64,000 nt of DNA, from NCBI GenBank assembly GCA_051294375.1, contig CM119264.1, forward strand, positions 14,534,682 through 14,598,681. Reading direction: 5' to 3'. Under the pieces are notes generated by a model. That model was not told the origin of the DNA and made no database searches. It saw only the letters and a program-made list of their open reading frames with translations. This DNA is from Paraspadella gotoi. Taxonomy: Eukaryota > Animalia > Chaetognatha. Of the stretch, positions 53,336 through 64,000 are shown in pieces. The translations under genes were made by a program, and so were the position numbers. Position 1 is the first letter of the stretch; the number at the start of each line of letters is the position of its first letter.

Positions 53336-53348
53336 GTTGCTAGGCAAC
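53336..53348. promoter_or_regulatory. RFX X-box, GTTGCTAGGCAAC
   Basis: Near-palindromic match to the RFX consensus GTNRC(C)-N0-3-RGYAAC, about 260 bp upstream of the RAB28 ATG and in front of six cilia genes. Confidence 0.8.
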
Positions 53349-53609
53349 GCCAAACACTCCTCTACACTGGAATTTCTTCTTTTCGCTAATAACAGTAACT
53401 CATTTTAAAGTAGTCGAATTAATAAGTTTTAGATTCGAAAAACTAGTAAAATCTTTGAATACACCGTCCACTGTGCCCAAGTGTAATTTTGCTGAATTTA
53501 CTATTAATTTATCTGAGTCAAAGAATCGGAAACAAAGAAAATCAGAAGGAACAAATTGAAATGACGCCTCTAGCGAACGTGAGATTCGAGTGACCATTCG
53601 ACGATCAGG

Positions 53610-54612
53610 ATGACGGACTCAGATGAAGAGCACGACGACCGACAGCTGAAAATCGTCCTCATCGGCGACGGTGCGTCCGGCAAGACCTCCATCTCCACTC
53701 GATACGCCCAACAAAATTTCGGCAAACAATACAAGCAAACTCTCGGTGTCGACTTCTTTCTCAAGAGGATCGTCCTTGGCGCCAGAACGCACGTCACATT
53801 ACAGGTCAGGGTCATTGTTACGAAGTCTTACGAGCCTTATTAGCCTTAATGTGACGCGTCTTTTTCGTTGTTGTCATTTATTTAATTTCTTTAAATTATT
53901 AATAATATGAATTTCATTGAAACTCTCCTAAATTTCGATAGGTGTGGGACATTGGTGGTCAGACCCTTGGGGGTCAGATGCTTGACAAGTACTTGGCCGG
54001 AGCCGACGGAATTCTCTTCGTCTACGACCTCACAAACTATTCGTCTTTCGAAAATCTCGAGGACTGGGCGCACTTCGTTGATCAACTATATTCGGACGTA
54101 CAGGTCAAACCACATCTTGCCCTGGTGGGAAACAAGATTGACTTGGAACATATGAGGACGGTCAAGTCAGACAAACATGCAAGATTTGCAACGGTAAGTC
54201 TCGATTAATTTTATCGAAAATAAACTCATAATCACAACGGCCTCCCGCAATTGACAGGATCACTCAATGTCATCGCATTTTGTATCAGCCAAGACAGGAG
54301 ATTCCGTTTCCCTATGTTTTCAAAAAATCGCAGCGGAGATTTGTGGCATTAAAATAACGAAGGCAGATTTGGAATCGCATCAACAGGTTTCTATTTCAGT
54401 TTCTTAACTGTTAACATAAAGTTAATTGTGAAAGAGGGTAACAACTAACGAAAGTTTTAGAAGAAGTAAAATGTTTAATTTTGGTATGTTTATAAATTAA
54501 CATGTACATGGTTTAGGTGGTGAAAGCCGAGATTTCGACCTACAAACAAGACAATGTTGCACGTGCCCCCTCTGCCGGAACGCGTAAAAGTTCTTTCTGT
54601 GCAATAAGCTAA
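53610..54612 (+). CDS. RAB28: Ras-related protein Rab-28 (ciliary small GTPase), 4 exons
   Basis: Exons 53610-53804, 53942-54193, 54258-54386, 54517-54612. [65 protein letters not shown]-terminal CAAX box CAIS. Confidence 0.95.
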
Positions 54613-54890
54613 CTCAACCGAACATATTCTGTTTTAATCAAACAATTACTCCAATCAACTGAACCATTTTCGTCTCAGTCCGTTTTTCAGAATAAAAAAA
54701 GATAAGGCTTTAAGTGCGATAATAATTTTCTTATTTTTTAATCTCTCGACGAAGCGTTAAAAAAACGCGTACCGTTGAAAAAGTGCTTTTCCGTGAACTA
54801 GTCAACTCTCAACGTTAATTTATAACCTGAATTTATTCGTTGTTAGTTAGCCTTGATCTTTTAGATTAAAGCGGACGAATAAACGTCAGT

Positions 54891-60165: not shown

Positions 60166-60361
60166 GCAATTTTACCCAAAAGGATTTTTATATGGATAAT
60201 AAGAATGGAATGCATTGAAATAAAAACGTGTAAATAATTTTCTTAACTTTTTTGCAAGCATAAAATAAATATCTTTTACGCTTTTTCATAAATTTGTCAT
60301 TTTGAAATAGTAAATCAGTTAAGACAAAAATGTTTTAATTGTAATCAAAAAACATTAAAAA

Positions 60362-62923
60362 ATGGAAATTGTTTATGTTTATACAAAAAAGAGGCAAGAA
60401 TTTGGTCGACAATGCAACTTTTCCGACAGGTAAGCTATAATAATGACTATAATACTAAATATCAATACTTAATATTGATTTCTTTCAGAGCGGCAGAGTT
60501 GCATGTAGATATTATGCCGGATGATAGCCTTGCAGCAAATTTTGTTGAAAAAAACCCAGTAGAAATAGGAATACAATGTGTCCAAGAAATGTCAGAACAT
60601 GAAGTTAATACTGAACGCTATGAAACTGAACCCAGAGGTAGTCAAATGACTATTTTCTTATAAATAATATTAATAAATATTATAAGTAACCAAAGAGAAT
60701 GATTTTTCAGGTTTGAATCATGTAGAAGGGGGTTGGCCTAAGGATGTTAATCCGGGTGAAGTTGAGCAAACAATAAGATACAGAAAAAAAGTTGAAAAAG
60801 ATGAAATGTATGTCAACACTATCATCCAACTTGGATCTGTAATGGAGCATTGCATTAAACAAAACAATGCCATAGGTAAGGAATACTATTCCTGGACTAA
60901 CAATCCTGGAATGAATGTGGCTAAAATGCTTGCATTGGTAGTGAGAATTACTACTAATTTGGTTGTAATTTTTTAAAAGACATCTATGAAGAATATTTCG
61001 ATGACGTAAAACAAGCTGACTTTGATGAAGAACCATCAGCTAAAACCATCAATGTTTTTCGAAATCCATGGACTGCAGAAACTTTGCCAGGCGAAAAAAA
61101 GCATACGGCAACAAGCATATCATGGTTTCCAGGTAGTAATTTTTTTTACAAATTTTAATGGAGAAAAGAGAAGGTAATTTATTGCAAATGTATTCAGATG
61201 GACCAAGCAGAGCAGCGGTAGCATATAGCAGCCTGGAATTTCGAGGATCAACTGTAGATTTGCCAATGTACTCATTCATATGGAATACTGAAAATCCTAA
61301 CAAACCTGAAATGACACTCAGACCTCCATCTTCAAATGTCTCTCTCGAATATAATCCGAAGGTTGATATTAAACAAAGCAGATATTCTAATAGGCCAAGA
61401 TCATATAAATAATATAGATTAAATAGTAAAACCTTGAACTTTAATATTCCAAAATATAAAATTAGAAAATAATGAAACAAGTAATTTTTCAAATTTTCAT
61501 AAAATTGATTGTTTTAAGGACTCGCACATACTCATTGGTGGGTGCTACAATGGGCAATTAGCGTTTTGGGACACGCGAAAAGGACCAATGCCTGTCGAAA
61601 CCACTCCTGTCGAATCTGCTCATCATGACCCTGTCTATAAAGTTATTTGGTTGCAAAGTAAAACAGGAACAGAATGTTTTTCTGGATCAACAGATGGTCT
61701 CGCGCTCTGGTGGGATATCAGGTGAATTTTAAAAATTTTTAACTCCTTATTTAAACGACGAATAGCTAACATAATTTACATTTCAGGCGCCTTGGAGAAC
61801 CAACAGAAAGGCTAATTCTCGATCCAACTAAGCAACTGGATCCATCAAAGGCTCAGGGAGCAATCTGTCTTGAGTATGAACCCACCATTCCGACAAGATT
61901 TATGGTGGGAACTGAACAAGGAAATATTCTGGGCTGCAACCGCAAAGCAAAGGGTCCTGCGGAGAAGATTGTATCGGTCTATTCAGGTACAGCACAAATA
62001 CAAAATGAATGGTGCCTAAATGCTTCTCCGTTTTAACGAAGAGTCATTTCATTTGTAATATGACAAAACCTGAGATCAGAACTAAATCAAAAATATATAA
62101 ATTACTAATGTTTGCCCAGGTCATCATGGACCCGTTTATGCGCTGCAACGTAATCCATTTTTTTCAAAAAACTTTTTGAGCGTTGGAGATTGGACGGCAC
62201 GAATTTGGTCAGAAGACATTAGAGAATCTTCAATAATGTGGACGAAAAGTCACAATCATTATTTGACAGATGGATGCTGGTAAAGTCAAATGGGTTGCTT
62301 AAAATTAGGAATAACAAACTATTTTTATAACCTTTCTTACAAAGGTCTCCCTCTCGTCCCGGGGTATTTTTTACAACAAAAATGGATGGAACTCTTGACC
62401 TTTGGGACATAATTTTTAAGCAAAAAGATCCTACACTGAGCATCCAAGTAAGCATTCATAACCCTAGTTTATTTAGCCAATGAAGAAAAACAGTTATAAA
62501 TCACAGATGATGATCTTAATTTTTTTAATGTTAGACCTATACTAATTCTTTAAAAAATTATCATTTCCAGATTTGCGAAGAACCTCTGTATTCCATAAGA
62601 GCTCATGAGCATGGTCGCCTAGTTGCAGTCGGATCACAGGTAACGGGAAAAAATATGTTACAATTACTGCAAGATAGCAATATAGCATTTGTTCATAGTA
62701 CGGCTCGATGACTCTGGTTGAACTTTCCGACAACCTGTGCACCCTGCAAACCAACGAGAAAGCCTTGGTGACGGCAATGTTCGAGCGAGAATCCAGGCGG
62801 GAGAAGATCCTGGAAGCACGTCACAGGGAGATGCGATTAAAAGAACGCGTGAAATCCGCTGCGGAAAACGAGAGGGCCGCCTCTGCTAACCAAGGAAACA
62901 AGAAAGAGGACTCCAATAAATGA
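60362..62923 (+). CDS. DNAI2: Axonemal dynein intermediate chain 2 (outer arm IC2, WD40)
   Basis: [108 protein letters not shown] at 62921-62923. Confidence 0.96.
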
Positions 62924-63084
62924 TATCCGCCTTAACACTTAGAATTGTAACTCGTTTCACCTTTTTGTTCTTGTTATCTTTGTGCATTAAAAAAACTCAT
63001 TACAGAAGAACAGAAAAAATGGTAAATTACTAAAAATTTTTTGTATTACAGCAGTTATGAGACCTATAAAAAATACATAAAACC

Positions 63085-64000
63085 ATGGCTTTTACACAAA
63101 CTGTGCAGCATGGATATCAGAGTGGCCGGCGTCATGACTACTTGTACGACAAGGTCTACACTGTTGGCAGTGAGAGGGACCATGCCCGAGATACCATCAG
63201 GGCAAGGACTAACATTGCCAACGTGCAAAGGTTGCCAGTCTACAGGACAATGTTCAGCGAGTTAAGACACAAGCCTCGTTTCAAAATGCGTCTGCAAAAT
63301 GTCGACCCAGTACCTCCGACGATCAAGAGAGAATGGAGGGGTCATGGAATTCAAGCACTCGAAGAATTGAAACGGTAAGATTTTACATTTGTTTCATACA
63401 TAATATGGTCATCAAAAACAACCACTTCATTGATGTTTTCTTAAGGCTTTACCAGCATGATCCAACCGTGAAAATACCAAAGCTAAAACCAGGAAATTCT
63501 GACGTCGGTGGGAAAGATCGAGCATTGTATTTTCGACGTCCGATCATCCCTTTTCTACAACAGGTAAAAATATGAACATTTAATTGGACCAATTTTTTTA
63601 AAAATAGATCCATTAATAAAGAATTAATTCAGATGCCGCCCGAAGTTTTATTAGCGCAAAAAACAAAAACCGCTCCTGGTACACGACAGAAAGACGAAAT
63701 GTTGCAGAGACCTCAATCTCCATTGGTCAAAACAATCATGACCCAAGTGAGTAGGAGGATAGCATACAAATAGAATAAACCTTACAAATATTTTTGAACT
63801 CATTTAATTTATAATTATATCTTGTTTTTTAATTATCTCACAGACGGACTACAGAGAGTCAGAAGCACAAACTGACCCTTACTCCCCCGAGTATGTGATA
63901 AGGCCGGGATCTCAGCCTGAACTTCTCACGCTGGCCACGCTTGCCTACGGGAGGGGTCTTCCAGCTGGTTTGGCCGAGGTAGAGATGATCGAAAGGGCAC
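63085..64000 (+). CDS. CFAP91: Cilia- and flagella-associated protein 91 (MAATS1; calmodulin/spoke-associated complex), 5' part, runs off the window
   Basis: [106 protein letters not shown]. Confidence 0.92.

What the first reader, a model, noticed from the sequence alone, without database searches (positions are those of the whole stretch)
53336..64000. Candidate motile-cilium operon: RAB28-CFAP298-ZMYND10-DNALI1-DNAI2-CFAP91 in one head-to-tail array
Seen: six consecutive plus-strand genes with stop-to-ATG gaps of 278, 195, 115, 196 and 161 bp, and the array continues past the window edge. Known: all six are cilium genes. RAB28 is a ciliary trafficking GTPase, CFAP298 and ZMYND10 are cytoplasmic dynein-arm assembly factors, DNALI1 is an inner-arm subunit, DNAI2 an outer-arm intermediate chain, and CFAP91 is spoke-associated. 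They are non-paralogous and, as I recall, not clustered in human. Inference: the gaps leave little room for a 3'UTR plus promoter plus 5'UTR, so this looks like a polycistronic unit. A six-of-six pathway-coherent animal operon is unusual, since operons in nematodes and tunicates mostly mix functions.
Basis: partly seen in the sequence, partly recalled or inferred. Interest (0 to 1): 0.92.

Follow-up and report, generated by a model that had tools for sequence, protein, structure and literature searches.

The report
Six-gene cilia operon under one X-box
Six unrelated genes for building beating cilia sit head-to-tail only 115-278 bases apart, behind one perfect binding site for the cilia switch RFX, and are likely read as one long RNA that is then cut into single messages, which would be a rare animal operon grouped by function.

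Summary
Six + strand genes (RAB28, CFAP298, ZMYND10, DNALI1, DNAI2, CFAP91) have stop-to-ATG gaps of exactly 278, 195, 115, 196 and 161 bp. Spliced contigs of run X1 confirm 29 of 32 modelled introns. Four points are new. (1) A palindromic RFX X-box lies at 53336-53348, at the head of the array, and none of the five spacers has one. (2) Contigs run through 3 of 5 spacers. (3) The CFAP298 contig ends 15 nt after an ATTAAA, and the ZMYND10 contig starts 22 nt later, exactly on the best unpaired splice acceptor of that spacer, as a trans-splice site would. (4) The array likely lies antisense in a >11-kb intron of a class II PI3K gene. Against: no spliced leader was seen, two spacers are unbridged, acceptors in the spacers are not above chance (p=0.23), contigs cannot show single molecules, and synteny could not be tested. 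Best reading: an RFX-driven, trans-spliced, function-coherent cilia operon in a spiralian (0.58). Ten literature searches found no such array.

The parts
48349..52897 (-). 3' part of a class II PI3K (PIK3C2) gene: kinase, PX and C2 domains, about 675 aa. It begins at a splice acceptor at 52897, and the first ~1,070-1,250 residues are absent from the window. Likely host gene whose intron holds the array.
   Evidence: contig
53284..53322 (+). (TC)19.5 repeat. The first contig of the array begins inside it (~53299) in genomic sequence, so transcription starts here or upstream.
53336..53348 (.). Palindromic RFX X-box GTTGCTAGGCAAC, 262 bp upstream of the RAB28 ATG
53610..54612 (+). RAB28, 4 exons, 223 aa
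54613..54890 (+). Spacer 1 (278 bp): AATAAA at 54691, acceptor-like site before 54865; bridged by a spliced contig
54891..56081 (+). CFAP298, 5 exons, 292 aa
56082..56276 (+). Spacer 2 (195 bp): ATTAAA at 56162-56167, contig end at 56182, 22 nt without cover, unpaired acceptor TTTTGCAG ending at 56204, next contig starts at 56205. Candidate trans-splice site.
56277..58903 (+). ZMYND10, 8 exons, 443 aa
58904..59018 (+). Spacer 3 (115 bp): AATAAA at 58942, contig end ~58945, no cover 58946-59004, weak acceptor before 59012; not bridged
59019..60165 (+). DNALI1, 6 exons, 262 aa
60166..60361 (+). Spacer 4 (196 bp); bridged by a spliced contig (60128-60426 continuous)
60362..62923 (+). DNAI2 (name recalled, not database-checked), 11 exons, 552 aa; all 10 introns seen as joints
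62924..63084 (+). Spacer 5 (161 bp): ATTAAA at 62986 and a strong acceptor before 63006, so the 3' end and the acceptor nearly coincide; bridged (62697-63373 continuous)
63085..64000 (+). CFAP91, first 4 exons; runs off the window

Best explanation
Six non-paralogous cilia genes lie head-to-tail behind a single RFX-type X-box and are likely transcribed from that one promoter as a polycistronic precursor, which would be cut into single-gene mRNAs by 3'-end cleavage and spliced-leader trans-splicing in the short spacers. Shown: the gene order, the gaps, the splicing, the motif, contigs across three spacers, and a contig start on an unpaired acceptor. Inferred: that RFX binds the motif, that one RNA spans the array, that a leader is added, and that the array lies antisense in a large intron of a class II PI3K gene. 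One ciliogenesis switch would then turn on two dynein-arm assembly factors, an inner-arm and an outer-arm subunit, a spoke-associated protein and a ciliary Rab together.
For: X-box at 53336-53348: the only exact 13-bp match in 64 kb, against 0.05 expected per shuffled window and 0 of 100 shuffles reaching the count. I wrote that pattern after seeing the site. The five published consensuses of PMC2375033, tested afterwards, all hit it, and the strictest hits only it within 52898-64000. None of the five hits any of the 5 spacers. Spacers have 21-33% GC, against 42% around the X-box. Spliced contigs, with no differing letters listed, run through spacers 1, 4 and 5. In spacer 2 the upstream contig ends 15 nt after ATTAAA. 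The ZMYND10 contig begins at its own position 1 on 56205, the first base after the best acceptor of the spacer (score 7.9; true acceptors median 5.8), and no credible donor lies upstream (best 3.0; true donors at least 3.9). That base is 1 of 195 in the spacer, and 6 of 195 follow a YAG. Relatives' contigs are mostly one gene long (19 of 21 CFAP298 at 1.0-1.3 kb, 7 of 7 DNALI1 at 0.95-1.2 kb), which fits resolved mRNAs.
Against: No leader sequence appears among the loose ends listed (all 5 rows; 12 of 63 rows shown). Two of five spacers are unbridged. The best acceptors of the spacers are not above dinucleotide shuffles: p = 0.75, 0.05, 0.68, 0.53, 0.12; combined 0.23. The first contig runs unspliced through the acceptor-like site at 53329. 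A contig across two genes does not show one molecule, since overlapping UTRs give the same picture. No degenerate X-box in 945 bp of spacer is unremarkable in itself (about 1.4 expected at the window's rate of 94 per 64 kb), and PMC2375033 warns that an X-box alone does not predict RFX control. A one-mismatch X-box-like site lies in ZMYND10 exon 1 at 56409. Loose forkhead-like TGTTGAT words occur in the two unbridged spacers only. The organism is unidentified, so trans-splicing in it is not established. All RNA evidence comes from one run.
Confidence: 0.58

Rival explanations
1. A hybrid cluster of two or three units: RAB28-CFAP298 from the X-box promoter, with ZMYND10 and/or DNALI1-DNAI2-CFAP91 started again from internal promoters.
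For: The contigs break exactly into these units. An X-box-like site with one mismatch lies at 56409. Forkhead-like words and an RFX half-site lie in spacers 2 and 3. The acceptor before DNALI1 is weak (2.8).
Against: The ZMYND10 contig starts on a splice acceptor, which a start site would not need. The internal motifs are weak or lie in coding sequence. Spacer 3 has 22% GC and only ~70 bp after its poly(A) signal.
Confidence: 0.22
2. Six independent genes, each with a compact promoter, packed together and co-regulated through shared chromatin. The bridged contigs would come from overlapping UTRs or read-through.
For: No leader was seen, and acceptors are not enriched. Each spacer has a poly(A) hexamer. 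Relatives' contigs are one gene long. The genome has short introns (median 70 nt), so its promoters may be compact too.
Against: There is no X-box in any of five spacers, while the head has a perfect one. One contig starts on an acceptor. Five promoters would have to overlap the upstream 3' UTRs. The rest of the window is not gene-dense: the gene after PI3K starts ~1.7 kb past its stop.
Confidence: 0.13
3. Co-transcription without trans-splicing (Drosophila-type dicistronic messages): stable di- and tricistronic mRNAs translated by re-initiation or internal entry.
For: Fully spliced contigs keep spacers 1, 4 and 5. Spacer 1 has no ATG. Two relatives' CFAP298 contigs are longer (1815 and 2343 nt), though their content could not be read.
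Against: Most relatives' contigs are one gene long. There is a poly(A) signal in every spacer. One contig starts on an acceptor.
Confidence: 0.06
4. Chance adjacency, or an assembly artefact.
For: The window has N gaps and duplicated stretches further upstream.
Against: RNA contigs are co-linear across three spacers with no differing letters listed. At most 2e-4 same-strand runs of six are expected per genome under the assumed cilia-gene fractions.
Confidence: 0.01

Closest known systems
Chaetognath trans-spliced operons (PMC2481426 and PMC12460157; passages read)
   Same: Same-strand genes closer than ~250 bp (4 of the 5 gaps here are under 250 bp, measured stop to ATG). The poly(A) site lies a few bases from the next acceptor (3 nt in the published case; 22 nt in spacer 2 and about 0 in spacer 5 here). 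Operons have up to nine genes. The published leaders end in A, which would fit a contig that starts exactly after the genomic AG.
   Different: Those operons are enriched for nitrogen and protein metabolism, depleted for finely regulated genes, and broadly expressed. This array is a cell-type programme behind an RFX site. That the window is from a chaetognath is a guess: the tree shows only an unnamed clade among spiralians.
Nematode (SL2) and tunicate operons (PMC7986045 and PMC2776167; passages read)
   Same: One promoter, short intercistronic regions (~100 bp in C. elegans, ~1-30 bp in tunicates), resolution by a spliced leader.
   Different: [quoted passage not shown] Here all six are ciliary. 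No leader is shown here.
Drosophila dicistronic and operon-like loci (PMC2776167; passages read)
   Same: Functionally related neighbours on one precursor.
   Different: Those are gene pairs, often paralogous, without trans-splicing. Here there are six non-paralogous genes and an unpaired acceptor.
RFX/X-box ciliary regulon (PMC2375033 and PMC5024701; passages read)
   Same: A palindromic X-box next to the start of ciliary genes.
   Different: Normally each dispersed gene has its own X-box. Here one X-box heads six genes.

Membership tests
SL trans-spliced animal operon | Two or more same-strand genes with very short intergenic distance | tested here: met
   115-278 bp stop to ATG; 22 nt from 3' end to the next 5' end in spacer 2
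SL trans-spliced animal operon | Single promoter or TSS for all genes | tested here: inconclusive
   One X-box at the head, none in 5 spacers; no TSS data, since contigs cannot show starts
SL trans-spliced animal operon | Precursor RNA spanning the spacers | tested here: inconclusive
   Contigs bridge 3 of 5 spacers and not the other 2; contigs are not molecules
SL trans-spliced animal operon | Unpaired 3' splice site before the downstream ATGs | tested here: inconclusive
   Met at 56204|56205, where a contig starts; not above chance across the five spacers, p=0.23
SL trans-spliced animal operon | Non-genomic spliced leader on downstream mRNAs | tested here: inconclusive
   None among the loose ends listed; only contigs were on offer, and they can drop short branches
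SL trans-spliced animal operon | SL RNA gene in the genome | not testable with these tools
   No whole genome is held
RFX regulon member | X-box near the transcription start | tested here: met
   53336-53348 fits 5 of 5 published consensuses and lies ~37 nt inside the first contig
RFX regulon member | Conserved site, RFX binding or RFX dependence | not testable with these tools
   No relative's genomic locus was found
Nested (intronic, antisense) gene cluster | Host exons on both sides of the cluster | tested here: inconclusive
   The 3' exons end at an acceptor at 52897, and no N-terminal PI3K match is found above 52897 with 9 of 9 homologues; the 5' exons would lie beyond 64000 and were not seen

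The most novel reading that the evidence does not exclude
A bacterial-style functional operon in an animal: at least six non-paralogous motile-cilium genes, gathered from dispersed ancestral places into one transcription unit under a single RFX X-box, resolved by trans-splicing, and sitting antisense inside an intron of a housekeeping kinase gene. It would show that trans-splicing lets selection assemble a cell-type programme into an operon, and it predicts further cilia operons in this lineage whose unnamed members would be new ciliary (PCD candidate) genes.
Probability: 0.5. Interest if true: 0.88.

Novelty: new variant of a known kind. Interest (0 to 1): 0.76.

Why it matters
Animal operons are usually described as functionally mixed and rich in housekeeping genes, and ciliary genes as a dispersed regulon with one X-box each. 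A six-gene cilia operon under one X-box contradicts both. It makes directly testable whether co-regulation can drive operon assembly in animals. It also offers guilt by association for finding cilia genes: DNAI2 and ZMYND10 are human primary ciliary dyskinesia genes (PMC7331728, passages), and RAB-28 is a ciliary GTPase (PMC5145144, title and passages). Even if the genes have their own promoters, a run of six ciliary genes is far beyond chance and was not found in print.

Tried and rejected
No whole genome is held, so no search for SL RNA genes or other cilia arrays was possible. No RNA holder is listed on record; X1 is taken as RNA because its contigs are spliced. Runs X2 and X3 laid only 3 and 1 short pieces, so they are not informative. 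Contig depth is higher over DNALI1 than over its neighbours, but contig depth cannot rank genes, so I did not use it. The start of the DNALI1 contig could not be solved from the depth bins. Synteny: the CFAP298 alignment found no locus (595 pattern hits, 0 confirmed). The DNALI1 alignment gave 533 relatives, of which the best 80 were kept. 0 of those 80 carry another array gene, but the animal-like ones are 1-2 kb intronless contigs and none is as close as the window's nearest relatives, so this does not test synteny. The sequence-only test for acceptor enrichment failed. A homologue search with ZMYND10 exon 4 found nothing, and the Atlas call for exon 5 gave unrelated viral clusters at low recognition. 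Earlier findings of this scan: nothing. Supplements of PMC12460157: the 3 PDFs hold none of six gene symbols and no cilia-operon passage; the gene table (xlsx) was too large to read and could list such an array. Preprint 10.1101/085571 (passages) added nothing usable. No fold or complex prediction was run, because the question is not structural.
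Full report
Observation. Reading the window and modelling exons gives six open + strand genes: RAB28 53610-54612, CFAP298 54891-56081, ZMYND10 56277-58903, DNALI1 59019-60165, DNAI2 60362-62923 and CFAP91 from 63085 to the window end. The 32 introns have a median length of 70 nt. Contigs of one public run, X1, show 29 of the 32 introns as exact GT..AG joints with no differing letters listed. 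One more intron is seen as loose ends and two are not shown in a truncated table. The genes are therefore real, spliced and expressed. X1 is not on record as RNA; I take it as RNA because it is spliced.

Gene names. RAB28: Rab-28 at E 6.6e-34 against 5e-11 for the next Rab. CFAP298, DNALI1 and CFAP91 match their Pfam families above the cut-off; CFAP91 also matches solved CFAP91 chains. ZMYND10 has weaker support: its two best PDB hits are the ZMYND10 MYND finger at E 0.02-0.03 and one exon gives an Atlas lead of 0.83, while two other exon searches gave nothing useful. The DNAI2 name is recalled and was not checked against a database. That the six human genes are unlinked is also recalled. If 2-8% of 20,000 genes are ciliary (an assumption), 4e-8 to 2e-4 same-strand runs of six are expected per genome.

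Organism. CFAP298 groups at 100/100 with nine unnamed proteins (75-79% identical), inside a 97/96 set with annelids and gastropods (50 of the 82 hits were used, plus the window's model). DNALI1 has unnamed relatives at 97-98%. No close relative carries a name. The window is thus likely from a spiralian lineage without an annotated public proteome. Arrow worms (chaetognaths) are my guess, untested. It matters only because that phylum has trans-spliced operons (PMC2481426 and PMC12460157, passages).

Promoter. A palindrome GTTGCTAGGCAAC lies at 53336-53348, 262 bp before the RAB28 ATG and about 37 nt inside the first contig, which begins in a (TC)n repeat at ~53299. It is the only exact match of a 13-bp X-box pattern in 64 kb (0.05 expected per shuffle) and remains the only site with one mismatch allowed. 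I wrote that pattern after seeing the site, so I repeated the scan with the five consensuses printed in PMC2375033 (passages). All five hit this site, the strictest hits nothing else in 52898-64000, and none hits any of the five spacers. Three caveats apply. The degenerate consensus would be expected only ~1.4 times in the spacers. A one-mismatch 14-bp site lies in ZMYND10 exon 1. The paper itself says that an X-box alone does not predict RFX control.

RNA across the spacers. One spliced contig of 2,241 nt carries RAB28, spacer 1 and CFAP298. One of 4,581 nt carries most of DNALI1, spacer 4, DNAI2, spacer 5 and CFAP91. Spacers 2 and 3 are not bridged: depth arithmetic leaves no other contig over 56183-56204 or 58946-59004. 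Spacer 2 is the most telling. ATTAAA lies at 56162, the CFAP298 contig ends at 56182, and the ZMYND10 contig begins at its first letter on 56205, the base after TTTTGCAG. That is the best acceptor in the spacer (7.9; true acceptors median 5.8), and no credible donor lies upstream. This is the layout of an intercistronic region resolved by 3'-end cleavage and trans-splicing. That the leader itself is missing from the contig could be an effect of assembly, which can drop short branches; this is inference. Spacer 5 has ATTAAA at 62986 and a strong acceptor before 63006, so the two sites nearly coincide. Against this reading: no leader appears among the loose ends listed (5 of 5 rows; 12 of 63), the first contig passes unspliced through the acceptor-like site at 53329, and the best acceptors of the five spacers are jointly no better than shuffles (p=0.23; spacer 2 alone 0.05). 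Contigs cannot show single molecules. In relatives, 19 of 21 full-length CFAP298 members sit on contigs of 1.0-1.3 kb (two on 1.8 and 2.3 kb) and 7 of 7 DNALI1 members with a length on 0.95-1.2 kb. Mature mRNAs are thus mostly single-gene, which fits a resolved operon and independent genes alike and speaks against stable polycistronic mRNA.

Surroundings. On the minus strand, 48349-52897 holds the kinase, PX and C2 domains of a class II PI3K. It begins at a clean acceptor at 52897, around residue 1,070-1,250 of full-length homologues, and 9 of 9 homologues find no N-terminal match above 52897. Its contig (2,934 nt) ends within 2-8 nt of that acceptor. The simplest reading is that the whole array lies antisense in an intron of more than 11 kb (about 0.7). 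The alternative is a truncated kinase gene head-to-head with the array. The rest of the window is sparse in genes and rich in microsatellites, so the tight packing is local. Only CFAP91 is shown to cross the window edge; the 4,581-nt contig has ~1,270 nt beyond 64000, too little to reach a seventh gene.

Synteny could not be tested. No genome is held, the CFAP298 scan found no locus, and 0 of 80 DNALI1 loci, mostly short contigs of other organisms, carry another array gene.

Mechanism. Most likely (0.58), RFX at the single X-box drives one precursor through the array in ciliated cells; each gene is cleaved and polyadenylated at its hexamer, and the next gene receives a spliced leader at an unpaired acceptor. 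Rivals: two or three units with internal promoters at ZMYND10 and/or DNALI1 (0.22), six independent compact genes (0.13), polycistronic mRNA without a leader (0.06), chance or artefact (0.01).

Known systems and novelty. It works like nematode, tunicate and chaetognath operons (PMC7986045, PMC2481426, PMC12460157, PMC2776167; passages only). Membership is not established, because the leader, the single start and the precursor were all inconclusive. It differs in content: C. elegans operon genes are rarely related in function, and chaetognath operons are depleted for finely regulated genes. Ten full-text searches (listings and abstract starts seen) found no paper describing this array or an animal cilia operon. 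The library lacks most subscription journals, and the gene table of PMC12460157 could not be read; an operon list there may already contain these genes without comment. Verdict: a real cluster far beyond chance and a probable function-coherent operon; new variant of a known kind; interest 0.76.

Noticed in passing
window 48349-52897 (-): Class II PI3K gene that lacks its first ~1,070-1,250 residues in the window and starts at a splice acceptor; the cilia array probably fills one of its introns (>11 kb, against a 70-nt median intron).
   Followed up: partly
window ~42910-47512 (-): Multi-exon gene with a SET domain (PF00856) and TPR-like and MYND-like stretches by eye; SMYD-like (recalled label). 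Its ATG is ~1.7 kb past the PI3K stop.
   Followed up: partly
window 56651-57201 and 56745-56941: The 591-nt second intron of ZMYND10 holds a dispersed repeat (many 85-95% contig matches) and a low-depth unspliced contig.
   Followed up: no
window ~14400-22600 vs ~24000-32700: ORF listings show near-identical text in these two stretches, suggesting a duplicated segment of ~8-9 kb or an assembled haplotype copy; rich in (AG)n repeats. An N gap of ~900 bp lies at ~12600-13500.
   Followed up: no
window 3042-3719 (+): Stop-free frame of 225 aa, hydrophobic like a multi-pass membrane protein; no Pfam match.
   Followed up: partly
window 12458-12471 and 13566-13579: Two X-box-like 14-mers flank the N gap; no ciliary gene was seen nearby.
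   Followed up: no
L014:6-18: A DNALI1 contig of another organism begins with an X-box-like site within its first 20 nt: there DNALI1 appears to have its own X-box, which the spacer before DNALI1 in this window lacks.
   Followed up: no
P0084 and P0092: Two CFAP298 relatives lie on contigs of 1815 and 2343 nt, the latter close to the 2241-nt RAB28-CFAP298 contig here; they may show the same gene pair, but the DNA could not be fetched.
   Followed up: no
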